Shown: positions 5,206-17,320 of the stretch, piece after piece | Position numbering within the stretch: the first letter of the stretch is position 1 | Layout: each line of letters begins with the position of its first letter | DNA from: Nostoc sp. | GTDB lineage: Bacteria > Cyanobacteriota > Cyanobacteriia > Cyanobacteriales > Nostocaceae | Direction: 5' to 3' | Assembly: GCF_036917135.1 (NCBI RefSeq) | Contig: NZ_JBALEA010000089.1 | Location: 47,974 to 111,973 of the forward strand | Length of the DNA stretch: 64,000 nucleotides | The notes under the pieces: model-generated | The model's database searches: none | Told to the model about the DNA's origin: nothing | Seen by the model: the letters and a program-made list of their open reading frames with translations, nothing else | Translations under genes and position numbers: made by a program

Positions 5206-5309
5206 CCATTTTTGCATAAATATATTTATGCAAGATGTCTAATATTTATCAACCAGTAGCACGGTATTTAATTACTTGGTTAAATCTTGAAAAAGAGATG
5301 CTCAAATAA

Positions 5310-5431
5310 GGGACTTCCAAATAAAAAAATATCCCAAAACTGACGCAAAAATCTTCTCTATTTCTCCTATCTCTGTGTTATCTGCGTCTCTGTGGTTCGT
5401 TCATTTGGATAATTTATTTCTTGAAAGTCCC
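5310..5431. mobile_element. MITE-like element, 122 bp, GGGACT...AGTCCC termini, 3-bp TAA target duplication
   Basis: Imperfect terminal inverted repeats gggacttccaaataaaaaaatatccc / tggataatttatttcttgaaagtccc; TAA at 5307-5309 and 5432-5434. Confidence 0.75.
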
Positions 5432-5468
5432 TAAGAGTCTTATACATCTTCCAAAATTTAGACTAAAA

Positions 5469-6428
5469 TCAGCTAGCAGTTTTTTTCGCTTCAATCATTC
5501 CGAGTGTGGGAACTTTAACATCCCAAGCTAAACCTAATACTTCCAGAGTGTGGATTAACCAGTACCCTAAATCAACTTGCCACCATTGCAACCCAAACTT
5601 TGCCGAGTTAGGAAAAGCATGATGATTATTATGCCATGCTTCTCCTCCTGTAGGAATTGCCAGCCAAACATTATTAGTACTCTGCTCACTACTATTGAAG
5701 GGGCGACTGCCATACAGATGACTAATGGAATTAATAGTCCAAGTTAAATGATGCACTACAAAAATTCGCACAAGTCCTCCCCACAAAAGTCCTTGCCATA
5801 TACCTATCCAAGTACCTGATAAAAGTCCTCCAAGAATAGCTGGAATCAAAAGACCTAAAAAGACCAGAACTAGGTATTGTTGGTTGACTTTTTTTATCAC
5901 AGGGTCTTGCAGCAAATCCTTCGCAAACACTGTAGAATTTGTGATTTCGCAGTTAAGCATCCAACCAATATGGCTATACCATATTCCGTTTAACCTTCCC
6001 CAAAATCCTCCTTGGTGAAGGTTGGGTGAATGAGTATCTCCTATCTGGTCACTGTATTGATGATGGCGCCTATGATTGCTCACCCAATTAATAACAGGTC
6101 CTTGAGCCGCCATAGAACCTAAGATAGCCAAACCAACTCGAACAGATGGGTGGGTTTTAAAAGTGCAGTGAGATAAAACCCGATGAAAACCTACAGTAAT
6201 CCCTCCGACCATAGTGAGAAACCAGAAGACCAAAAGCAATGCTAATTCCATGAGATTAATTCCAAAATCCCAAGCGAATTTGAGCGCTATCATTGTCCCG
6301 ATCAAAGGAATTATGATTGTGGCTATAGCAAAACGCCTTTGTACTTGTTGTAAGTAATCATTTTGGATTATTATCTTTGTTGTTTTACTTAAAGTCGCCA
6401 AACCATGACTTTGATTGTCTAACTGCAT
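5469..6428 (-). CDS. Membrane-bound fatty acyl desaturase A (delta-9-like fold, JamB-like context)
   Basis: His boxes HRVLSH, HRRHH, HNNHH; 319 aa; paralog of 8038-8997. Confidence 0.92.
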   Translation of the reverse strand: MQLDNQSHGLATLSKTTKIIIQNDYLQQVQRRFAIATIIIPLIGTMIALKFAWDFGINLMELALLLVFWFLTMVGGITVGFHRVLSHCTFKTHPSVRVGLAILGSMAAQGPVINWVSNHRRHHQYSDQIGDTHSPNLHQGGFWGRLNGIWYSHIGWMLNCEITNSTVFAKDLLQDPVIKKVNQQYLVLVFLGLLIPAILGGLLSGTWIGIWQGLLWGGLVRIFVVHHLTWTINSISHLYGSRPFNSSEQSTNNVWLAIPTGGEAWHNNHHAFPNSAKFGLQWWQVDLGYWLIHTLEVLGLAWDVKVPTLGMIEAKKTAS

Positions 6429-6484
6429 TAGGTTCTACATCCTCCTTAAATCTTGTCTTCACTATTAACTTCGTACCATTTGGC

Positions 6485-7720
6485 TTAGGTGTAAATGGTG
6501 AAGGGTGGGATTTGTTCGTTGAGTACCCAGTCACCAACTTCGTGGACTTTGTAAACAACTGGATCGTGCAGAGTATGAGTACGGACATTGCGCCAGAAGC
6601 GATCAAAGCGATATTTTGTCGCAGTAGCACGAGTTCCCATCACTTCAAAAATCTTGCTTGTCACTTCTAATGCCACTCGTGTAGTCAAGACTTTGGCAGT
6701 GCTAATAATAACAGCAGTTTCACCGCGTTCGGTGGCTGTCAGGTCTTCTCCCTTTTCCCAGGCAGATTGGAAGACCGAGTTGACATAATCAACATGGCTG
6801 ATGGTTGAAATCAAACTCACCCAGAGATTACCGTATTGCTCAATAATATAAGGATCTTTAGCTGCCGTGTGGGCAGGTGAAAAAATCCAGGGACGGCTTC
6901 CAGATAGTGTATATTGCTTGCCTTCCTCAAAGGCACCTAGTGCAATTCCCAGATAGAAATTGACAAAGACGGACTGGAAAGCAGGAGTTACCAATGAGGC
7001 AAAGGAGCTAGGCGCATCTTTAGAGTTAGGATTGCCCAGAATCTCATCTCGGTGAATCAAGACATTATTAAAAGTGACGCTACCGCTATCGGTTTGTCGC
7101 TGTCCAATGTAATCCCAATCGTCATTGAGAACCACTCCTTCTCGATGGGTGGGAACAATGGCAATGGGAAGATTCTCCACAGCTTCCCGATGCTTGGCAA
7201 CAATGCTAACGGGAAGATTCTCTACATATCCTCGCGCTGCTGTCACTACAATAATGTCGGAGCCAGTACTGCCTGTGGCAAAGTTTTTAGTACCATTGAG
7301 CCGGAAATTTTTTCCATCTGCTGTTAGCACCAATTTAGGATCTCGCGGATTAACAGCATCACCCCAAAACCAGTTGTTGCGAGTAGTTTCGCTGTAGAAT
7401 CGGGCTTTTTGTTCGGGAGTACCATTTAGTTCAGGGATGACAGAATTGACATAGTGGTATCCCAAAAGTTGACCAAGGGAGCCATCCGCTTTGGCAATTT
7501 CTCGTACAACTTTGAGGGCTGTAACCCAACTTTGACCAAATCCACCATATTGTTCTGGGATCAGGAGTTTAAGCAGACCACTTTCTCGCAGACGATTTAG
7601 TTCGGCAGTCGGACTACCACCTTTGGCATCCCGTTCGACTGCTGTTTTAGCAAACTCCTTTCCTAATGACGCAGCTAGAGCAATGTAGTCTTTTGTTTCT
7701 TGTAAGGTAGATAAAACCAT
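6485..7720 (-). CDS. Acyl-CoA dehydrogenase-fold flavin-dependent monooxygenase, DszC/SfnB type
   Basis: DDWDYIGQRQTDSGSV and C-terminal FDRFWRNVRTHTLHDP motifs typical of DszC/SfnB. Start set at ATG 7720 (GGAG 9 nt upstream); the ORF extends to 7735. Confidence 0.85.
   Translation of the reverse strand: MVLSTLQETKDYIALAASLGKEFAKTAVERDAKGGSPTAELNRLRESGLLKLLIPEQYGGFGQSWVTALKVVREIAKADGSLGQLLGYHYVNSVIPELNGTPEQKARFYSETTRNNWFWGDAVNPRDPKLVLTADGKNFRLNGTKNFATGSTGSDIIVVTAARGYVENLPVSIVAKHREAVENLPIAIVPTHREGVVLNDDWDYIGQRQTDSGSVTFNNVLIHRDEILGNPNSKDAPSSFASLVTPAFQSVFVNFYLGIALGAFEEGKQYTLSGSRPWIFSPAHTAAKDPYIIEQYGNLWVSLISTISHVDYVNSVFQSAWEKGEDLTATERGETAVIISTAKVLTTRVALEVTSKIFEVMGTRATATKYRFDRFWRNVRTHTLHDPVVYKVHEVGDWVLNEQIPPFTIYT
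7136..7225 (-). repeat. In-frame 2 x 45-bp tandem duplication inside the monooxygenase
   Basis: VENLPVSIVAKHREA / VENLPIAIVPTHREG, visible at DNA level. Confidence 0.9.
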
Positions 7721-7751
7721 TTTCAGCATCTCCATAAAATTCGTACTAAAA

Positions 7752-8012
7752 CTATTCGCTTAAATGTTGTGCAAGAGATGCGATCGTCGGGTAATCCCAA
7801 ACTAGCCTTAGCTCTAGCTCTTTTCCTAGCCAATCTGCTAAATCTCCGGTTAAAACCACCGCTACCGATGAATCTAAACCATAACGGGCAAAAGTGGTTT
7901 CTACATTTACTTCTTCGGGTTCGATTTCTAGCAAATCTGCTAGATAAGAAATCAACCATTCTTTGATTTCTGTAGTAGATACTTTCAAAGTTTCAGTTTT
8001 TTGAGAAAGCAT
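7752..8012 (-). CDS. Stand-alone acyl carrier protein
   Basis: YGLDS phosphopantetheine Ser motif, DYPTIASLAQHL C-terminus; GGAGG RBS upstream of ATG 8012; 86 aa. Confidence 0.93.
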   Translation of the reverse strand: MLSQKTETLKVSTTEIKEWLISYLADLLEIEPEEVNVETTFARYGLDSSVAVVLTGDLADWLGKELELRLVWDYPTIASLAQHLSE

Positions 8013-8037
8013 ACATCCTCCAAAATTTAGACTAAAA

Positions 8038-8997
8038 TCAGCTAGCAGTTTTTTTCGCTTCAATCATTCCGAGTGTGGGAACTTTAACATCCCAAGCTAA
8101 ACCTAATACTTCCAGAGTGCGGATTAACCAGTACCCTAAATCAACTTGCCACCATTGCAACCCAAACTTTGCTGAGTTAGGAAAAGCATGATGATTGTTA
8201 TGCCATCCTTCTCCTCCTGTAGAAATTGCCAGCCAAACATTATTAGTACTCTGTTCACTAGTATTCAAAGGGCGACTACCATACAGATGAACAATGGAGT
8301 TAAGACACCAAGTTAAATGATGGACTACAAAAATTCGCACAAGCCCTCCCCACAAAAATCCTTGCCCTACACCTATCCAAGTACCTGATAAAAGTCCTCC
8401 AAGAATAGCTGGAATCAAAAGACCTAAAAAAACGAAAATTAGGTATTGTTGATTGACTTTTTTCATCACAGGGTCTTGCAGCAAATCCTTCGCAAACACT
8501 GTAGTATTTGTGATTTCGCCGTTAAGTATCCAGCCAACATGGCTATGCCACATTCCCCTTAACTTTCCCCAAGATTCTCCTTGATAAAGGTTGGGTGAAT
8601 GAGTATCTCCTATCTGGTCGCTATATTGATGATGTCGTCTATGATTGCTCACCCAATTAATCACAGGGCCTTGAGCCGCCATAGAACCCAAGATAGCCAA
8701 AGCAACTCGCACAGATGGGTGGGTCTTAAAAGCACAGTGACATAAAAGCCGATGATTACCTACAGTCACCCCGCCAATCATTGTGAGAAACCAGAAAACC
8801 AAAAGCAGTTCTAATTCCATGAGATTAATTCCAAAATCCCAAGCGAATTTCAGCGCTATCAGTGTCCCGATCAAAGGAATAACGATCGTGGCTGCGGCTA
8901 ACCGCTTTTGTACTGTTTGTAAGTAATCATTTTTGATTGTGATTTTTGCTTCTTTAGTTGAAGTCAACAAAGAAGGATTTTGATTATTTAACTGCAT
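8038..8997 (-). CDS. Membrane-bound fatty acyl desaturase B (delta-9-like fold, JamB-like context)
   Basis: His boxes HRLLCH, HRRHH, HNNHH; 319 aa; directly upstream of the ACP. Confidence 0.92.
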   Translation of the reverse strand: MQLNNQNPSLLTSTKEAKITIKNDYLQTVQKRLAAATIVIPLIGTLIALKFAWDFGINLMELELLLVFWFLTMIGGVTVGNHRLLCHCAFKTHPSVRVALAILGSMAAQGPVINWVSNHRRHHQYSDQIGDTHSPNLYQGESWGKLRGMWHSHVGWILNGEITNTTVFAKDLLQDPVMKKVNQQYLIFVFLGLLIPAILGGLLSGTWIGVGQGFLWGGLVRIFVVHHLTWCLNSIVHLYGSRPLNTSEQSTNNVWLAISTGGEGWHNNHHAFPNSAKFGLQWWQVDLGYWLIRTLEVLGLAWDVKVPTLGMIEAKKTAS

Positions 8998-9029
8998 GAG
9001 CTTTTACATCCTCATTCAATCCTTTAAAA

Positions 9030-10637
9030 TTAGGCTTTTTTACAGAGATATTCATCCAGTTCATCTTCTTCTCCAGCTAAACCTTGCTCGATATCACCAA
9101 TTTTTTCGGCATACTGATTAATCAGACTTTCTACCTGATTAATATCTAGTAAAGTCTGAGCATAGATATTTCCTGTAAGAGCATTAGCTATCTTTGCCTG
9201 AAAATATTGTTGACCCCAATTTTCGACACGTTGTAATTCATCTGTCGGTTCACTTTGATATGACTTTTGTATGCAAGCAACCACAAATGCCCATGCAGCT
9301 ACATCACCCAATTTCTGGGATAATATTTTACTTAATTTCTTATTACTGTTCCCAGAGAGGTTTTTCTTTTTGAGGTAAGAAGCACAAGTTTCAGCCGTCT
9401 GTTGCAATTGTTCGCTGATTTTTGTCGCTCCCAAAAACTCATTAAGAGATGAAAAGACTTGAGGTGTTTGGTATAAAGTTAATAAACCCAAATGCATCTG
9501 TAAAGTTTCAGTTGGCCCCTCAAAAATCCGAAATAAACGAGCATCCCGTAAGATTTGGGGCGCAATATTAGATTCGATATAACCCCGTCCACCTAGTAGC
9601 TGAACTAGATTATCTGCTGCTTGCCACATTAATTCGGGGGCGATAATCTTAGCGACAAGATAAGCTTCTAAAGGAACAGGTTTCTCTTCATCTAGGGATG
9701 TTGCAATGGTTTTCACCAAGCACTCAACTGCACCAATTGCTGCTGTTAAATCACTCAGACGTTGTAAAGTAATCTGTTGATTTATTAGCCGTTCTATACC
9801 AATTGAGCGACGGGTAGCATAACGAAGCATGAGTTGGGCACAATGTTTCATTCCGCCAATACAGGTGGCAGAAATTCCCAATCTCGCTAGTTGCATTGCG
9901 TCCTGGGCTACTTCAAAACCAGAACCAATTTCGCCTAAAACATTTTCATGATTGACTTTTACCTGCTCAAGGTGAATAGTATTCTGAACCATACCTCGCA
10001 TTCCCATCGTCAGAGCTTCAGTACCTTGCCTCAATCCTTGAGCATTTTCGGGAATGGTAAATGCTGTGATTCCCAAAGAGTCGCCTTGTTCATCTACAAC
10101 ATGAGCAAAAATATTGATCGCGCTTGACCAAGATGCAGAACCGCTCCAAATTTTGGTGCCGCTAAGTAACCACCCACCACTTCCATCTGGATGGGCTTCA
10201 GCCTTGATTCCTCTAGGATTAGATCCGGCAGATGGTTCGGTAATGGCAAAGGCTGCTAAATCTCTCCCTTGGGCTAAATTCTGGAGATAGGTTTCTTTAA
10301 TCTCAGGTGTACCATGCTTAAGAATTGGGTAGATTCCGAGAAAATTGTTTACACCAACAAATGAAGCTAAGTTGAGATCAATAGCTGCAAGTTGTTCCAT
10401 CACTTGCAACATATCACTGTAACTTAAGCCAAGACCCCCGCATGATTGAGGCACAATCATTCCCAACAAACCTTTTTTGCCAAAGTCTAGAACGACGTGA
10501 GGAGTTATACACCGTCGCTCGTCCATAAGTCTAGAATTGATTCGTCTTTGGGCATAGTCACGTAACCAATGGATGACTTGCTCTGCACGTTGACGACTTG
10601 AACTTTCTAAAGACTGACTTTGACTATTGAACTGCAT
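9030..10637 (-). CDS. Acyl-CoA/acyl-ACP dehydrogenase
   Basis: AFAITEPSAGSN, LSGTKIWSGS, QLLGGRGY, RIFEGPTE (catalytic Glu position); extended C-terminus. Confidence 0.9.
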   Translation of the reverse strand: MQFNSQSQSLESSSRQRAEQVIHWLRDYAQRRINSRLMDERRCITPHVVLDFGKKGLLGMIVPQSCGGLGLSYSDMLQVMEQLAAIDLNLASFVGVNNFLGIYPILKHGTPEIKETYLQNLAQGRDLAAFAITEPSAGSNPRGIKAEAHPDGSGGWLLSGTKIWSGSASWSSAINIFAHVVDEQGDSLGITAFTIPENAQGLRQGTEALTMGMRGMVQNTIHLEQVKVNHENVLGEIGSGFEVAQDAMQLARLGISATCIGGMKHCAQLMLRYATRRSIGIERLINQQITLQRLSDLTAAIGAVECLVKTIATSLDEEKPVPLEAYLVAKIIAPELMWQAADNLVQLLGGRGYIESNIAPQILRDARLFRIFEGPTETLQMHLGLLTLYQTPQVFSSLNEFLGATKISEQLQQTAETCASYLKKKNLSGNSNKKLSKILSQKLGDVAAWAFVVACIQKSYQSEPTDELQRVENWGQQYFQAKIANALTGNIYAQTLLDINQVESLINQYAEKIGDIEQGLAGEEDELDEYLCKKA

Positions 10638-12489
10638 TAGCTTTTGCGCCCTCCTGAATATTTACTTTTTGAGAATCAGGATTATCTTGCTGCACTTTTA
10701 CTAAGAGTGAGTTGACATCAACTTCCAACTTGTGAAACTGGGCTTGATGCTGAAGAGTTCCACTACAGTGCGCCACCACATTCAAACTGCCATCTAGAAA
10801 CCCACGCCGACAGGCATGACGCTGAATTTTCCCGCTAGATGTCTTGGGAATACTCCCAGGTTTAATTAAAACTGTGGCATACACTTGTAAACCGTGATTA
10901 TCTACAACTGCTTCAGTGATATTGCCGACGACTTCTTGAATATCCAACCGCCTTAAATAGGTTCGTTCTACCTCTTGAACAACAATTAATCGCTGTTGTC
11001 CCTTCTGATCTACAGTGAAAGCTGCTCCACAATGCGATCGCAATGCTGGATGACTTTTTTGCACTGTTAACTCAATATCCTGGGGATAATGATTTTGTCC
11101 TCGGATGATAATCACATCTTTTAGTCGTCCGGTAACAAATAGTTCGCCATCTTGCAAAAATCCCAAGTCACCCGTGCAAAGAAACGGCCCTTCTCCTGTA
11201 TCCCCCAGATAACTTTGAAAAGTTTCCGCAGTTTTTTCTGGTTGGTTCCAATAGCCACCAGCCACAGAAGAACCTGATACCCAAATCTCTCCCACCTTCC
11301 CAGGAGGACACTGAGTTAAAGATTCGCGATCGACAATGACGATTTTTTCATCTAACCAGGTGCGACCACAGCCCACAATTGTTTTAGTTCCTTCCCCAGA
11401 TTCAGCCGCCACCACCTGATTTTCCTCAAGGGCTGCTGCTTCAACTTGGTACAGAATCGGCGAAGCTGTTTTTAAACCTCCAGAAACGAATAAAGTTGCC
11501 TCAGCCATCCCGTAACAGGGATAAAATGCTTCTCGACGGAAACCACAAGGAGCGAAATAGTTAGCAAATAGCTCCATTGTCTCGGCACGGACTGGTTCGG
11601 CTCCATTGAAAGCGACTTCCCAACTGCTTAAATCAAGACTAGAAAGCTGTTCGGGAGTAATCTTGCGAACGCACAAATCGTAAGCAAAATCTGGCCCGCC
11701 GCTAGTAGTGGCTTTGTAACGAGAAATAGCTTGCAACCAGGAAAAAGGCTTTTGCAGGAAAGCTACTGGTGACATCAAAATAGACGGGATACCCAAATAT
11801 AGAGGCTGCAAAACGTTCCCAATCAGACCCATATCGTGGAATAAGGGTAACCAACCGACAAAAATTGTTTTATCTGTATGTCCGAAACCCATTCTGATGG
11901 ATCTCTGGTTGCACAGTAAATTTCCATGAGTGATCATCACTCCCTTCGGCGTTCCCGTAGAGCCTGAAGTGTATTGCAGAAATGCCAGAGTGTCTCTCTC
12001 TAGTCTTGGTTTTTGCCAATCTGAACTGAGATTGCTGTCAATGCAATCAGTATTTAACCAGCGCATAGTTGCCAATTCTGGATTTTCGACCGTTAACAAA
12101 GATTTTGTGGTCAAGACTATCTTGGCTTGGGCATCTTTAGCGATCGCCTGCAACCTGAGCAAGTTCATATTGGCTCGGGGTGGATAAGCGGGAACGGCGA
12201 TAACACCCGCATATAAACAGCCAAAGAAGGCGCTAATGAATTCTAATCCCGGTGGATACAACAGCAAAGCCCGTTCGCCAGGAGATACTAGAGACTGAAG
12301 ATGGGTAGCGAGCGATCGCGCTTGCAGGTCTAATTCTCCATAAGTCAGGCTGTTTTCTTCAGTTTCTCCATCTTTGAGAAATATATAAGCCCTTTGCTGA
12401 GGCTGATTTTTAGCTCTGTAGCTGAGTAATTCTATTAAATTTGAAAATTTGTCAAGAGGGTTTTGGAGATCAGCCAAACAAATAGTCAT
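10624..12489 (-). CDS. Fatty acyl-AMP ligase (FAAL)
   Basis: LQYTSGSTGTPKGV, WLPLFHDMGLIG, YPCYGMAEATL followed by the FAAL-type insertion, GRLKDVIIIRG, PKTSSGKIQR. Confidence 0.93.
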   Translation of the reverse strand: MTICLADLQNPLDKFSNLIELLSYRAKNQPQQRAYIFLKDGETEENSLTYGELDLQARSLATHLQSLVSPGERALLLYPPGLEFISAFFGCLYAGVIAVPAYPPRANMNLLRLQAIAKDAQAKIVLTTKSLLTVENPELATMRWLNTDCIDSNLSSDWQKPRLERDTLAFLQYTSGSTGTPKGVMITHGNLLCNQRSIRMGFGHTDKTIFVGWLPLFHDMGLIGNVLQPLYLGIPSILMSPVAFLQKPFSWLQAISRYKATTSGGPDFAYDLCVRKITPEQLSSLDLSSWEVAFNGAEPVRAETMELFANYFAPCGFRREAFYPCYGMAEATLFVSGGLKTASPILYQVEAAALEENQVVAAESGEGTKTIVGCGRTWLDEKIVIVDRESLTQCPPGKVGEIWVSGSSVAGGYWNQPEKTAETFQSYLGDTGEGPFLCTGDLGFLQDGELFVTGRLKDVIIIRGQNHYPQDIELTVQKSHPALRSHCGAAFTVDQKGQQRLIVVQEVERTYLRRLDIQEVVGNITEAVVDNHGLQVYATVLIKPGSIPKTSSGKIQRHACRRGFLDGSLNVVAHCSGTLQHQAQFHKLEVDVNSLLVKVQQDNPDSQKVNIQEGAKANAVQ

Positions 12490-12621: not shown

Positions 12622-13986
12622 TTATCGAATGATGCCTAATTCACGATCCAATTTTTGGAAAACGTGAATAAATGTATCTAAATCTTCACGTGTATGGGTT
12701 GCCATGACACTGATTCGGAGTCTTTGGGCATTGAGGGGAACAGCAGGGTACTCGACCGAATTCACAAAGATGCCTTCTTGGTGAAATCTCCAGGCAAGAG
12801 TGCGAATTTCGACTTCAGACGGGATTCTCACTGGTATAATTGCAGAGTCGCTGCTGGTTTGGAATCCTGCCGCTTGCAGTTGCTGCAATAAGTAAGTGCT
12901 ATTGGCTCGAAGTTGACTAACACGCTCCGGCTCCCGCTCAATGATATCTAGACCTGCCAAGATAGCCGCAACAACAGGAGCAGGCAAAGATGCCGAGAAC
13001 ATATAAGACCGAGCAAAGAAGCGCAGATACTCGATTACCTCACGACTGGCAGCGATGAAGCCGCCTGTGACACCCAATGCCTTACTGAAAGTCCCCATCG
13101 TGACATCAATTCGACCTTTCAGACCAAAGTGTTCATCAGTGCCACCGCCCTTTTTACCCATAACACCAGTGCCGTGTGCATCATCCACGACAAGAATAGC
13201 CCCGTAATCGTCGCAAAGTTCACGAATTGCTGGGAGTGCAGCTAAATCGCCATCCATCGAATATACGCCTTCTATAGCCACATAGATTAATCGATTTGAT
13301 GCTCCTCCAACTTGCTTGCATTTGATCAGACGCTGTTCGAGGTCATCACAATCATTATGCTTGAAGCTAAAAGCGCGAACGCTGGAACCCATAGAGACAA
13401 GCTTAATGGCATCATAAAGACTGGCATGGCTTAACTCGTCGCAGATTAAAACATCATCATCACGTAACAGACCATTAACCCACCCTAACTGTGCCTGAAA
13501 TCCACTGGCAAAAAGGAGAGCATCTTCTGCGCCTTTGAACTGGGCTATACGAGCTTCAAGTTGGCGATGGAGGCTACTCATGCCATTGAGTAGAGGTGGT
13601 CCACCCATACCAACACCAAATTCTTCAATAGCTCGTTTTGCTGCTTCTCGAACATAGGGATGGGTGGTCAATCCCAGGTAGTTATTTGATCCGAACATCA
13701 GCATTGACCTGATTTCACCAGTGAGCGGATCTTTAATCAGAGTTCGATTTTCAATCGGCCCAACGACCTCACGAGGAAAATAGGTGAGCATACAGGCATT
13801 GGGACCGATAGAGGCATTTGGTGTATGCAACCAATTAGAGCAAGGTTTCACGCGCTCCGCTAAGGATGAACCAATCGTTGGGAAAAAATCTTTGAAGGAA
13901 AAATTCTCGGCATGGCTGCTGGTATCCGGTGCAACCCATATATTCCTAACATCTTCTGGGAATTTATTAGTCTGTTTACTTAACAT
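12622..13986 (-). CDS. PLP-dependent alpha-oxoamine synthase (serine palmitoyltransferase/BioF/KBL family)
   Basis: MFGSNNYLGL, SHASL, EGVYSMDGD, DDAHG, GTFSKALG (Schiff-base Lys); long N-terminal extension. Confidence 0.92.
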   Translation of the reverse strand: MLSKQTNKFPEDVRNIWVAPDTSSHAENFSFKDFFPTIGSSLAERVKPCSNWLHTPNASIGPNACMLTYFPREVVGPIENRTLIKDPLTGEIRSMLMFGSNNYLGLTTHPYVREAAKRAIEEFGVGMGGPPLLNGMSSLHRQLEARIAQFKGAEDALLFASGFQAQLGWVNGLLRDDDVLICDELSHASLYDAIKLVSMGSSVRAFSFKHNDCDDLEQRLIKCKQVGGASNRLIYVAIEGVYSMDGDLAALPAIRELCDDYGAILVVDDAHGTGVMGKKGGGTDEHFGLKGRIDVTMGTFSKALGVTGGFIAASREVIEYLRFFARSYMFSASLPAPVVAAILAGLDIIEREPERVSQLRANSTYLLQQLQAAGFQTSSDSAIIPVRIPSEVEIRTLAWRFHQEGIFVNSVEYPAVPLNAQRLRISVMATHTREDLDTFIHVFQKLDRELGIIR

Positions 13987-14052
13987 TGTGAACTCTAACC
14001 TAGATTTATTTCTCTGTTTTTAGCAAAGCAAACTAACCGCTTAAGTCTTTTA

Positions 14053-14175
14053 GGGACTTCCAAGAAATAAATTATTCATCTTGTGGGGTGGGCATCCTGC
14101 CCGCCCTGAATATAGGACGGGTGAGGACACCCATCCCACAAGAAAATTTGGGATGTTTTTTTATTTGGAAGTCCC
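14053..14175. mobile_element. MITE-like element, 123 bp, same ends as 5310-5431 but in opposite orientation, TTA target duplication
   Basis: gggacttccaagaaataaatt ... ttttttatttggaagtccc; TTA at 14050-14052 and 14176-14178. Confidence 0.8.
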
Positions 14176-15027
14176 TTAAGCAATAGACCTCTTGTGTGAA
14201 TCAGATTATGAACTGCTCAACAGATAAGTCGCTAGTTTGTGAGTATGCATTTTTTCTAATAGTCAATCGCACAGTTTCATTGCATTTTTTTCACAAAATC
14301 TATATCTACTTTATTGGTGAAGACATTGAGAATAGCAAGCAGTTTTTATCTGAGTAAAGGCTCTCTTAAGACTTTTTTGTGTTTTTTATATGCAGTACTT
14401 TAAAAAGTACTCGCACACCAAGAAAACTGCTCAAAATGATTTCACTAAAGAATGGAAATTAGCAAATAAATATCATCAATTACTTTTTATGTAGAGCAAT
14501 CTTATTTGAAGTGTGAGCATCCTAAAATCAGAGAAAATCAACATTTTCTCGGTTTTTATAAAGCATTTAAGATTGCTGTGTAATATTAATCTAACGAGGA
14601 GTACCAGTTGGCCAATATTGTAACCAATTTTCAACTTTAAACATGATTTTAGCTGGAAGAGAAGACATACAAATAGAAAAGCCCTTCTCTAGTGAAAGAT
14701 TAAGCACTAAAAGTTTTTCCTCTGATCTAAACGTATCAATATCTAAATCTTTTTGGATGTGTTGGAAATCTGGATTAGAGTGAATTTTCAATCCGAGATT
14801 AAAGCTACCACTATTTAGATTTTGTTGTCAATCAACAAAAGCTAAATAAAATGAGTTAAACAAGATGTTTAGATAAAAATATATAGGTAGATATAGATAC
14901 AGAATCTCACTAGATATATCACAAGCACATAAGTTGTTACGACAAATTGCCGATGCAATTGATAATATTAGAGTGATATTGGAATAGCTAAAACAGATGG
15001 AGATAGCCAAATTGAGTAAGGGAAACC

Positions 15028-17246: not shown

Positions 17247-17320
17247 TCGGGATGACAGGATTTGAACCTGCGGCATCCTGCTCCCAAAGCAGGCGCGCTA
17301 CCAAGCTGCGCTACATCCCG
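17247..17320 (-). tRNA. trnP: tRNA-Pro (anticodon TGG), CCA not encoded
   Basis: Cloverleaf cgggatg acceptor stem, anticodon arm cctgc-TTTGGGA-gcagg, GGTTCAAATCC T-arm. Confidence 0.97.

What the first reader, a model, noticed from the sequence alone, without database searches (positions are those of the whole stretch)
5469..8997. Twin 319-aa desaturases whose differences include residues beside the catalytic His boxes
Seen: manual alignment gives 50 differences in 319 aa (about 84% identity). Ten lie in the first 20 residues and nine in residues 141-160. Others sit at the metal sites: GFHRVLSH vs GNHRLLCH, WTINSISH vs WCLNSIVH, IPTGGEAWH vs ISTGGEGWH. The last about 170 nt differ at only about 3 positions. 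Established: JamB-type enzymes are bifunctional desaturase/acetylenases, and polyyne pathways use several desaturases on one ACP. Inference: division of labour (alkene then alkyne, or two positions), with recent homogenisation of the 3' ends.
Basis: partly seen in the sequence, partly recalled or inferred. Interest (0 to 1): 0.7.

Follow-up and report, generated by a model that had tools for sequence, protein, structure and literature searches.

The report
Twin carrier-protein desaturases in Nostoc
Two 84%-identical membrane desaturase genes in an uncharacterised seven-gene lipid operon of a Nostoc genome are old duplicates that keep overwriting each other's 3' parts, yet hold 14 amino-acid differences fixed, five of them beside the iron ligands, so they probably do different jobs on one carrier-bound fatty acid.

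Summary
The two minus-strand ORFs, 5469-6428 and 8038-8997, encode 319-aa proteins that share 269/319 residues with no gaps. All quoted motif differences are present, and the last 170 nt differ at 4 sites.

They are not housekeeping DesC. They belong to the clade of desaturases found in FAAL-desaturase-ACP (JamABC-type) cassettes.

The operon reads alpha-oxoamine synthase, FAAL, NocC-like acyl-ACP dehydrogenase (81% identical to NocC), Des2, ACP, DszC-like flavin monooxygenase, Des1. It lies between prmC and sua5.

About a dozen Nostoc-type genomes carry this cluster, with one, two or three desaturases.

Gene conversion between the twins is clear in relatives, where tracts of 462 and 750 nt are identical. 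It is moderately supported in this window.

Counted raw, differences beside the His ligands are not enriched (9 against 8 expected). The differences fixed between the two types across genomes are mostly nonsynonymous (18 N to 4 S, against 118 to 134 polymorphic; p=0.0016). Outside the N-terminal tail, all five flank iron ligands (77, 81, 231, 232, 236).

The unusual copy is the upstream one, which has N81 where 101 of 106 relatives have F.

Functional divergence is supported. The chemistry is untested. I found no paper on this cluster.

The parts
5469..6428 (-). Des1, the downstream copy ('dn' type): 319-aa membrane di-iron desaturase with the residues typical of the family (F81, I77, T231, I232, S236)
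   Evidence: (PF00487, 71 bits). His motifs: H82/H87, H119/H122/H123, N233/H237, H266/H269/H270.
8038..8997 (-). Des2, the upstream copy ('up' type): 319-aa membrane di-iron desaturase with derived residues N81, V77, C231, L232, V236
   Evidence: (PF00487, 75 bits). N81 occurs in 0 of 106 more distant relatives (F in 101).
5442..6452 (-). Repeat unit, copy 1: 24 nt upstream, Des1, then 27 nt downstream that keep the ACP ribosome-binding site and start as a remnant
   Evidence: D1, spacing 2569. In L004/L043 the same unit runs on through a second ACP (1266 nt).
8011..9021 (-). Repeat unit, copy 2: 24 nt upstream, Des2 and the start of the ACP gene
7752..8012 (-). Stand-alone acyl carrier protein, 86 aa from the ATG at 8012, with a GLDSS phosphopantetheine site
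   Evidence: PF00550, 61 bits; called as 86 aa in relatives; 68% identical to the ClyB-like ACP.
6485..7735 (-). DszC/SfnB/MsuC-like flavin-dependent monooxygenase with an acyl-CoA dehydrogenase fold
   Evidence: DszC model, 385 bits; PDB 6u76, 3x0x; E about 1e-101; two other paralogs in the genome at 51%.
9030..10637 (-). Acyl-ACP dehydrogenase, 535 aa, 81% identical to NocC of Nodularia sp. HBU26
   Evidence: NocC activity on C6-C12 acyl-ACP is reported in PMC9486936.
10624..12489 (-). Fatty acyl-AMP ligase; overlaps the dehydrogenase gene by 14 nt
   Evidence: 79% identical to the ClyA-like FAAL; 64-66% to FAALs of JamABC-type cassettes.
12622..13986 (-). PLP-dependent alpha-oxoamine synthase (SPT/KBL/BioF family) with an N-terminal extension of about 90 aa; the likely chain-release enzyme
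   Evidence: SPT 3a2b, 2e-79; KBL 1e-74. The TFSK lysine and the DDAH motif can be read in the sequence.
5307..5442 (.). MITE-like element with terminal inverted repeats; it starts exactly where the Des-ACP repeat homology ends
   Evidence: (I1, I2).
14042..14179 (.). MITE-like element of about 130 nt just upstream of the operon, with at least 40 copies in the genome

Best explanation
Des1 and Des2 are paralogous JamB-type membrane di-iron desaturases that most likely act on an acyl chain held on the operon's own carrier protein.

Origin (shown). They come from an old tandem duplication of a desaturase+ACP unit inside an orphan operon: alpha-oxoamine synthase, FAAL, NocC-like acyl-ACP dehydrogenase, Des2, ACP, DszC-like monooxygenase, Des1. 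In this genome the second ACP has been lost, at a point where a MITE-like element now sits.

Gene conversion (shown). Patchy conversion, mostly anchored at the 3' end, has repeatedly overwritten one copy with the other.

Retained differences (shown). Fourteen amino-acid differences stay fixed between the two types across genomes. Nine are in the cytosolic N-terminal tail. Five flank iron ligands: 77 and 81 next to H82, and 231, 232 and 236 around N233/H237. The upstream copy carries the derived states.

Pathway (inferred). The FAAL loads a medium-chain fatty acid, about C12, onto the ACP. The dehydrogenase makes an enoyl-ACP. The two desaturases introduce different unsaturations or act at successive steps. 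The flavin enzyme oxygenates an intermediate. The alpha-oxoamine synthase condenses the acyl-ACP with an amino acid and releases an unsaturated alpha-amino-ketone (sphingoid-like) lipid.
For: Identity and motifs: (SCD1 4YMK, E 1e-30, with all ligand motifs aligned).

Not DesC.

JamABC-type context: nearly all of the 78 named loci with 46-68% identical homologs carry FAAL-Des(1-4)-ACP. The sister group is made of FAAL-Des-ACP-PKS/NRPS cassettes.

Duplication unit and variable architectures at one syntenic site.

Gene conversion:
- Paralog differences are 96, 79, 33, 61, 111, 109 and 185 nt in seven genomes, with identical tracts at 189-937 and 496-957.
- The tree topology shifts between segments of the gene.
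- Segment distances and Fisher p=0.0015.
- A patch at aa 138-149 has been exchanged in both directions.

Both copies are under purifying selection: omega is 0.13-0.30 among orthologs and 0.23-0.43 between paralogs.

Fixed differences between types are 18 N to 4 S, against 118 N to 134 S polymorphic (p=0.0016). Outside residues 1-40, all 5 fixed replacements lie within 5 residues of a ligand (P=2e-4). N81 is found in none of 106 relatives.

Loading module: the ACAD is 81% identical to NocC, the FAAL 79% to the ClyA-like FAAL and the ACP 68% to the ClyB-like ACP, in the same FAAL-ACAD-ACP order as the cly/noc module and with the same 14-nt overlap. NocC is a demonstrated acyl-ACP dehydrogenase (PMC9486936). 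The lactylate FAALs are listed as using C12:0 (PMC11837247).

The alpha-oxoamine synthase keeps the catalytic Lys and Asp/His motifs.

Residues beside His boxes are known to set reaction outcome in membrane desaturases; this rests on my own knowledge of Broun et al., Science 1998.
Against: - No biochemical or expression data exist for any gene of this cluster.
- The downstream copy is dispensable in some genomes: three have one desaturase and no DszC-like gene, and two have lost the second desaturase, one of them (L044) keeping an 80-nt remnant of it.
- In the 'Stigonema' MAG pair the catalytic half is identical and both copies have F81.
- Raw differences near the ligands are at chance level.
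- The AU test on the 177-nt 3' segment cannot separate the alternatives (p about 0.2).
- The MK-style test treats sequences from different species and partly converted paralogs as a sample, and the groups were defined by me.
- No authentic JamB or TtuB sequence was available.
- Chain length, amino-acid substrate and the role of the DszC-like enzyme rest on homology alone.
Confidence: 0.62

Rival explanations
1. The twins are functionally redundant duplicates (a dosage effect). Concerted evolution keeps them similar, and the remaining differences are neutral leftovers not yet erased.
For: Conversion is recurrent and sometimes nearly complete. Several genomes manage with one desaturase. The 138-149 patch is exchanged freely. 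Differences near the ligands are not enriched in the raw count.
Against: Fixed differences are 18 N to 4 S, against 118 N to 134 S polymorphic (p=0.0016). The same 14 replacements hold across five or more genomes. No conversion tract enters the first 190 nt or so in any genome. Each ortholog group is under purifying selection. The genome with the nearly complete conversion has a FAAL split by an insertion, so its cluster is probably dead.
Confidence: 0.2
2. The two desaturases work only together, as a hetero-oligomeric complex like the Cay/Pgn polyyne triad, and build conjugated triple bonds on the ACP-bound chain.
For: JamB-related CayB/C and PgnE/F act jointly on ACP-bound acyl chains, and all members of the triad are required (PMC9828172). 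Tandem arrays of 2-4 JamB-like genes are common in cyanobacterial FAAL-ACP cassettes. One related architecture has three desaturases and two ACPs.
Against: There is no Delta12-type third desaturase, thioesterase or dedicated redox partner in the operon. Intact versions with a single desaturase exist at the same locus. The twins are 84% identical, whereas members of multi-desaturase cassettes each match these desaturases at only about 47-61%.
Confidence: 0.1
3. Both are housekeeping acyl-lipid Delta9 desaturases (DesC) acting on membrane lipids.
For: Sources annotate relatives as 'acyl-CoA desaturase' or 'stearoyl-CoA desaturase'. They share the SCD1 fold family.
Against: The genome has two separate DesC-like genes (273 and 304 aa, 43% and 38% identical), one of them next to a DesA-like gene. 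In the tree the twins are separated from these by long branches with support 100. Close copies occur in only about 12 of 389 Nostocaceae genomes, always inside the FAAL/ACP operon.
Confidence: 0.02

Closest known systems
JamA-JamB-JamC terminal-alkyne cassette (jamaicamide, Moorena producens JHB) and TtuABC (Teredinibacter turnerae)
   Same: A FAAL, a membrane Delta9-type desaturase and a stand-alone ACP sit in one operon. The twins are 46-68% identical to desaturases of FAAL-Des-ACP cassettes and nest among them. JamB acts on acyl-ACP and is strict about its ACP.
   Different: An acyl-ACP dehydrogenase lies between the FAAL and the desaturase. There are two near-identical desaturases. No PKS or NRPS follows; instead an alpha-oxoamine synthase leads the operon. 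Family-invariant residues are changed (W188 to F/L, F85 to L, Y69 to W; F81 to N in Des2). No authentic JamB or TtuB sequence was compared. The nearest named relative is a Moorena producens FAAL-Des-Des-ACP-FMO-PKS cassette, whose protein cluster's representative is 56% identical to Des2.
ClyA-NocC-ClyB loading module of the chlorosphaerolactylate/nocuolactylate (cly/noc) locus
   Same: The order FAAL, acyl-ACP dehydrogenase, ACP is shared, with the same 14-nt gene overlap. Identities to the Nodularia sp. HBU26 proteins are 79%, 81% and 68%. NocC desaturates C6-C12 acyl-ACP in vitro (PMC9486936).
   Different: There is no CylC-type halogenase, PKS or NRPS-like lactylate module. JamB-type desaturases, a DszC-like monooxygenase and an alpha-oxoamine synthase take their place.
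Cay/Pgn bacterial polyyne desaturase triad (caryoynencin, protegencin)
   Same: Several membrane desaturases related to JamB act on one ACP-bound fatty acid loaded by a FAAL (PMC9828172).
   Different: The triad has three distinct enzymes, one of them Delta12-type, plus a thioesterase and a redox partner, and acts on C18. Here there are two 84%-identical paralogs, no thioesterase, and a PLP enzyme as the likely release step.
Bacterial serine palmitoyltransferase with a dedicated ACP and acyl-ACP synthetase (Caulobacter-type sphingolipid module); also Fum8/CqsA-type alpha-oxoamine synthases
   Same: An alpha-oxoamine synthase is paired with an adenylating enzyme and its own ACP. The best solved relatives are SPT (2e-79) and KBL. 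The Caulobacter comparison rests on my own knowledge.
   Different: No ceramide synthase or ketoreductase is present in the operon. The enzyme has an N-terminal extension of about 90 aa. The amino-acid substrate is unknown. The closest relatives outside Nostoc (59-61%) sit in unrelated operons with a DAGK-type lipid kinase.
Mouse/human stearoyl-CoA desaturase SCD1 (PDB 4YMK, 4ZYO)
   Same: The fold family and all metal-ligand motifs are shared.
   Different: The match is remote (phmmer E about 1e-30 over 245 aligned residues). The twins have a 10-residue insertion after His box 2 (aa 138-147). They are linked to an ACP rather than acting on acyl-CoA, judging by gene context.

Membership tests
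Membrane di-iron fatty acid desaturase superfamily (Pfam PF00487; SCD1/DesC type) | Pfam FA_desaturase match above the gathering score | tested here: met
   71.4 and 75.0 bits against a cut-off of 29.7.
Membrane di-iron fatty acid desaturase superfamily (Pfam PF00487; SCD1/DesC type) | Ligand motifs HX4H, HX2HH, NX3H and HX2HH | tested here: met
   H82/H87, H119/H122/H123, N233/H237 and H266/H269/H270 are present in both copies and align with SCD1.
Membrane di-iron fatty acid desaturase superfamily (Pfam PF00487; SCD1/DesC type) | Two hydrophobic hairpins (four transmembrane helices) | tested here: inconclusive
   A hydropathy scan finds stretches at 31-82 and 181-211 but does not resolve single helices. 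No structure model was made.
JamB-type ACP-dependent desaturase/acetylenase | Encoded with a FAAL and a stand-alone ACP in one operon | tested here: met
   The difference is an acyl-ACP dehydrogenase between the FAAL and the desaturase.
JamB-type ACP-dependent desaturase/acetylenase | Groups with FAAL/ACP-linked desaturases rather than with acyl-lipid DesC | tested here: met
   Tree of 60 proteins: the twin clade (support 100) nests among cassette desaturases, and the genome's own DesC genes are a distant outgroup.
JamB-type ACP-dependent desaturase/acetylenase | Sequence relationship to biochemically characterised JamB/CamB/TtuB | not tested
   No named reference sequence could be retrieved. 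The nearest named relative is a Moorena producens JamABCD-like cassette, whose protein cluster's representative is 56% identical to Des2.
JamB-type ACP-dependent desaturase/acetylenase | Acts on acyl-ACP and converts a terminal alkene to an alkyne | not testable with these tools
   This needs reconstitution. Family-invariant W188, F85 and Y69 are replaced in the twin clade, so the same regiochemistry cannot be assumed.
Bacterial polyyne desaturase triad (CayB/C/E, PgnE/F/H) | Three distinct desaturases including a Delta12-type one, with a thioesterase and a redox partner | tested here: not met
   The seven-gene operon holds only two near-identical Delta9-type paralogs, with no thioesterase and no rubredoxin or ferredoxin gene. 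The feature list is from PMC9828172.
Housekeeping acyl-lipid Delta9 desaturase DesC | Orthology with the genome's DesC genes and general presence in Nostocaceae | tested here: not met
   38-43% identity to the two DesC-like genes. Close copies occur in about 12 of 389 family genomes.
cly/noc fatty-acyl loading module (ClyA-NocC-ClyB) | FAAL, NocC-type acyl-ACP dehydrogenase and ACP in that order, with high identity | tested here: met
   79%, 81% and 68% identity, and the same 14-nt overlap of FAAL and ACAD.
cly/noc fatty-acyl loading module (ClyA-NocC-ClyB) | Followed by a CylC-type halogenase and PKS/NRPS-like lactylate enzymes | tested here: not met
   None of these is in the window's operon. 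They are present in L137.

The most novel reading that the evidence does not exclude
The F81N change next to the first iron ligand, together with I77V, T231C/S, I232L and T236V, has given the upstream copy a different reaction outcome or position from the conventional downstream copy, for example acetylenase or hydroxylase against plain desaturase. On this reading the strains with one, two or three desaturases, with or without the flavin monooxygenase, make a graded series of unsaturated or alkynyl sphingoid-like alpha-amino-ketone lipids peculiar to Nostoc of the lichen-cyanobiont type. The twins would then be a natural, minimally different pair for mapping what decides chemistry in JamB-type enzymes.
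Probability: 0.2. Interest if true: 0.7.

Novelty: new variant of a known kind. Interest (0 to 1): 0.5.

Why it matters
- **Bio-orthogonal tagging.** JamB-type enzymes are the main genetic route to bio-orthogonal alkyne tags, yet nothing is known about which residues set their chemistry, position or chain length. This pair differs at only 50 residues, and comparative data narrow the candidates to 14: five at the metal site and nine in the N-terminal tail. That is a short, directly testable list.
- **Operon design.** The operon couples a JamABC-like or cly-like fatty-acyl loading module to an alpha-oxoamine synthase instead of a PKS or NRPS. I found no paper on this design. It predicts a small amino-ketone lipid.
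- **Distribution.** The cluster was found in about a dozen Nostoc-type genomes, including a Peltigera cyanobiont.
- **Evolution.** The locus shows selection holding a few residues against repeated gene conversion.

Tried and rejected
- **Literature.** Searches for FAAL + desaturase + ACP + alpha-oxoamine synthase or SPT clusters found nothing on this operon.
- **Authentic JamB/CamB/TtuB/CayB.** None appeared among the 80 named genome loci. Cluster look-ups gave only 'acyl-CoA desaturase' names.
- **AU tests** on the 177-nt 3' segment were indecisive (p about 0.2). In the 5' 780 nt the downstream copies are themselves mosaic (p 0.06 for their monophyly).
- **Strict diagnostic sites** are almost absent after nt 744, so they say nothing about the 3' end.
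- **Promoter and terminator scan:** fewer sites than in shuffled sequence. **Rfam:** only a tRNA at 17247-17320.
- **Contexts of the closest alpha-oxoamine synthase relatives outside Nostoc** did not point to a known pathway.
- **The idea that the two ACAD-fold genes are also duplicates** was rejected: they share only 29% identity over 109 residues.
- **Enrichment of raw differences beside the His boxes** was rejected (P=0.40).
- **Structure prediction** was not run, because the tool returns no coordinates and so could not place the 14 residues.

Full report
**Observation**

The window carries two minus-strand ORFs of 319 codons at 5469-6428 (Des1) and 8038-8997 (Des2). BLASTP aligns them without gaps at 269/319 identities, which gives 50 differences.

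- Ten differences fall in residues 1-20 and nine in 141-160.
- At the DNA level 96 of 960 positions differ.
- The last 170 nt hold 4 differences, and the last 79 coding nt hold none.
- Similarity begins 24 nt before each ATG and continues 27 nt past each stop. After Des2 that stretch is the ribosome-binding site and ATG of the ACP gene; after Des1 it is a remnant.

One correction applies. Taken as a raw count, the differences are not concentrated beside the metal ligands (9 within five residues against 8 expected, P=0.40). They are concentrated in the N-terminal tail (13 of 32 residues).

**What the genes are**

Both proteins match Pfam FA_desaturase. Both align to mouse SCD1 (4YMK, E 1e-30) with all ligand motifs in place: H82/H87, H119/H122/H123, N233/H237 and H266/H269/H270.

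They lie in a tightly spaced minus-strand operon:

| Gene | Coordinates |
|---|---|
| alpha-oxoamine synthase | 12622-13986 |
| FAAL | 10624-12489 |
| acyl-CoA-dehydrogenase-fold protein, 535 aa | 9030-10637 |
| Des2 | 8038-8997 |
| ACP | 7752-8012 |
| DszC-like flavin monooxygenase | 6485-7735 |
| Des1 | 5469-6428 |

The operon is flanked by the housekeeping genes prmC and sua5/yrdC.

The window's genome is a 7.1-Mb Nostoc-type assembly. It holds two further Delta9-type desaturases, of 273 and 304 aa and 43% and 38% identity, one of them next to a DesA-like gene. These are the plausible housekeeping DesC genes.

In a tree of 60 proteins the twins and their close relatives form one clade (SH-aLRT 100). 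That clade nests among desaturases from FAAL-Des-ACP cassettes, and its nearest neighbours come from FAAL-Des-ACP-PKS/NRPS loci of Scytonema, Rhizonema and Moorena. The DesC genes sit on a long outgroup branch.

Nearly all of the 78 named genome loci that encode 46-68% identical homologs have a FAAL upstream and an ACP downstream, often with two to four tandem desaturases.

I could not place an authentic JamB, TtuB or CayB sequence on the tree.

**The loading module has a characterised relative**

The 535-aa dehydrogenase is 81% identical to NocC of Nodularia sp. HBU26. The FAAL is 79% identical to the neighbouring ClyA-like FAAL there, and the ACP is 68% identical to the ClyB-like ACP. The loading genes follow the same FAAL-ACAD-ACP order in both loci (here with Des2 inserted before the ACP), with the same 14-nt FAAL/ACAD overlap.

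NocC was shown in vitro to desaturate C6-C12 acyl-ACP (PMC9486936). The lactylate FAALs are listed as using C12:0 (PMC11837247). From this I infer a medium-chain substrate and an enoyl-ACP intermediate here.

The alpha-oxoamine synthase is closest to bacterial SPT and KBL (2e-79 to 1e-74) and keeps the PLP lysine and the Asp/His motif. With no thioesterase, PKS or NRPS present, it is the likely release step, giving an alpha-amino ketone. This is inference.

The DszC-like protein is a diverged paralog (51%) of two other such genes in the genome. Its role is unknown.

I found no paper on this operon.

**Comparative anatomy**

Close copies (81% identity or more) occur in about 12 of 389 Nostocaceae genomes. 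Where named, these are Nostoc MAGs, Nostoc sp. 'Peltigera membranacea cyanobiont' 232 and a 'Stigonema' MAG. In most of them the cluster sits at the same prmC...sua5 site.

Four architectures exist:

| Type | Gene order | Where found |
|---|---|---|
| A | AOS-FAAL-ACAD-Des-ACP | three genomes |
| B | A plus DszC-like | two genomes |
| C | B plus a second Des | this window and five others |
| D | C plus a second ACP and a third desaturase | two loci |

- The third desaturase of type D is only 50% identical to the twins. It is nearly the same as a member of a four-desaturase cassette in Dolichospermum.
- In D the repeated unit is Des+ACP (1266 nt).
- In the window the second ACP is missing from exactly the point where a MITE-like element begins, at 5442.
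- One type B genome (L044) keeps the first 80 nt or so of the downstream desaturase, so there the second desaturase was lost by deletion.

**Gene conversion**

| Genome or locus | Differences between the paralogs (nt) |
|---|---|
| this window | 96 |
| its nearest relative | 79 |
| the two type D loci | 111 and 109 |
| a divergent metagenome locus | 185 |
| the 'Stigonema' MAG | 61, with nt 496-957 identical |
| G253 | 33, with nt 189-937 identical |

In no genome does a conversion tract enter the first 190 nt or so.

Segment trees put the window's downstream copy with other downstream copies over nt 1-780, but inside the upstream clade over nt 781-957. By distance, in the 3' segment the downstream copy is 4 differences from its paralog and 14 from its orthologs. 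In the 5' part the figures are 92 against 51-72 (Fisher p=0.0015 and 0.011).

An AU test on the 177 nt alone is not decisive (p about 0.2), and the 5' part is itself mosaic.

It carries an upstream-type sequence in the downstream copy of type D genomes. It has therefore been exchanged in both directions and is not type-specific.

The genome with the 750-nt tract has its FAAL split by an insertion of about 175 nt with inverted ends and a duplicated GGTTAAAC. Its cluster is probably inactive.

**Are the twins functionally different?**

Both are intact and under purifying selection. NG86 omega is 0.13-0.30 among orthologs and 0.43 between the window's paralogs, rising to 0.75 in the first 40 codons.

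I compared ten upstream copies of the core Nostoc group with five unconverted downstream copies.

- Fixed differences are 18 nonsynonymous to 4 synonymous, against 118 to 134 for sites that vary within or across the groups (Fisher p=0.0016).
- The fixed replacements are at codons 4, 8, 9, 11, 16, 20, 22, 28 and 35 (the N-terminal tail) and at 77, 81, 231, 232 and 236.
- Outside the first 40 residues, all five lie within five residues of an iron ligand (P=2e-4, and 1e-3 to 3e-3 with other window sizes).

This pattern is expected if conversion removes neutral differences while selection keeps those that matter.

The caveats are real. The sequences are from different species, the paralogs are partly converted, and I chose the groups, although by gene position and clade and before running the test.

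Polarity is informative. At 81, 77, 232 and 236 the downstream copy has the residue usual in 106 more distant relatives (F 101/106, I 92, I 73, T 59). The upstream copy has N81 (0/106), V77, L232 and V236. So the derived enzyme is the upstream one, which is also the only desaturase in architectures A and B.

The whole twin clade also departs from family-invariant W188 (F or L), F85 (L) and Y69 (W). The regiochemistry of JamB should therefore not be assumed for these enzymes.

In membrane desaturases a handful of residues beside the His boxes are known to switch reaction outcome (Broun et al. 1998, from my own knowledge; see also PMC8341276).

**Verdict**

The twins are JamB-type, ACP-linked desaturase paralogs from an old Des+ACP duplication. 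Gene conversion keeps them partly homogenised, and a short list of retained differences points to functional divergence.

What the two enzymes do is not known. Possibilities include alkene against alkyne formation, two different positions, or different partners through the N-terminal tail.

The polyyne-triad analogy does not fit the gene content.

I rate this a new variant of a known kind. It is of moderate interest as a natural minimal pair for dissecting JamB-type chemistry, and as part of an orphan, apparently unpublished, operon design.

Noticed in passing
window 5307-5442 and 14042-14179: MITE-like elements of about 130 nt with shared terminal inverted repeats (TTAGGGACTTCCAAGAAATAAA...) sit at both ends of the operon in inverted orientation. 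The right-hand one has at least 40 copies in the genome. The left-hand one starts exactly where the Des-ACP repeat is truncated.
   Followed up: partly
L042 (G253) 12113-12289 and 10482-10659: In a sister Nostoc genome the FAAL gene is split into ORFs of 178 and 492 aa by an insertion of about 175 nt with inverted ends and a duplicated GGTTAAAC. A second insertion of similar size sits at the FAAL/ACAD junction. This is the genome whose two desaturases are identical over 750 nt.
   Followed up: partly
L004 11590-12543; L043 12422-13324: The three-desaturase version of the cluster has a third desaturase only 50% identical to the twins. It is nearly identical to a member of a four-desaturase FAAL-Des4-ACP cassette of Dolichospermum sp. 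LEGE 00240, which suggests module exchange between clusters.
   Followed up: partly
L064, L068, L071, L079, L080, L083, L118: Many cyanobacteria carry FAAL-Des(3-4)-ACP cassettes with tandem JamB-like desaturases, each 47-61% identical to the window's desaturases. These are candidates for polyunsaturated or polyyne chemistry.
   Followed up: no
window 7132-7221: The DszC-like gene holds an in-frame 45-nt tandem duplication (80% identical copies), which gives the repeated 15-aa segment ENLPVSIVAKHREAV / ENLPIAIVPTHREGV in its middle domain.
   Followed up: no
L130 and L132: The closest alpha-oxoamine synthase relatives outside Nostoc (59-61%) lie in conserved operons with a DAGK-type lipid kinase and with PPDK-like, AIRS-like and HAD proteins. 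This looks like another uncharacterised amino-lipid pathway.
   Followed up: no
L044 10185-10299: A genome with the DszC-like gene but no second desaturase keeps about 36 nt of upstream sequence plus the first 80 nt or so of the downstream desaturase (95% identical to window 6350-6464). This is a deletion scar.
   Followed up: yes
L009 5728-6080: A metagenome version of the cluster lies at a different genomic site, next to AbiE genes. It has only fragments of the acyl-ACP dehydrogenase (two pieces of 51 and 64 residues), while both desaturases, the ACP, the DszC-like gene, the FAAL and the alpha-oxoamine synthase are intact.
   Followed up: no
L077 and L125: Two more distant FAAL-Des-ACP loci (Scytonema tolypothrichoides, Mastigocoleus) also have a neighbouring alpha-oxoamine synthase, at 31-33% identity to the window's. 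The pairing may have arisen more than once.
   Followed up: no
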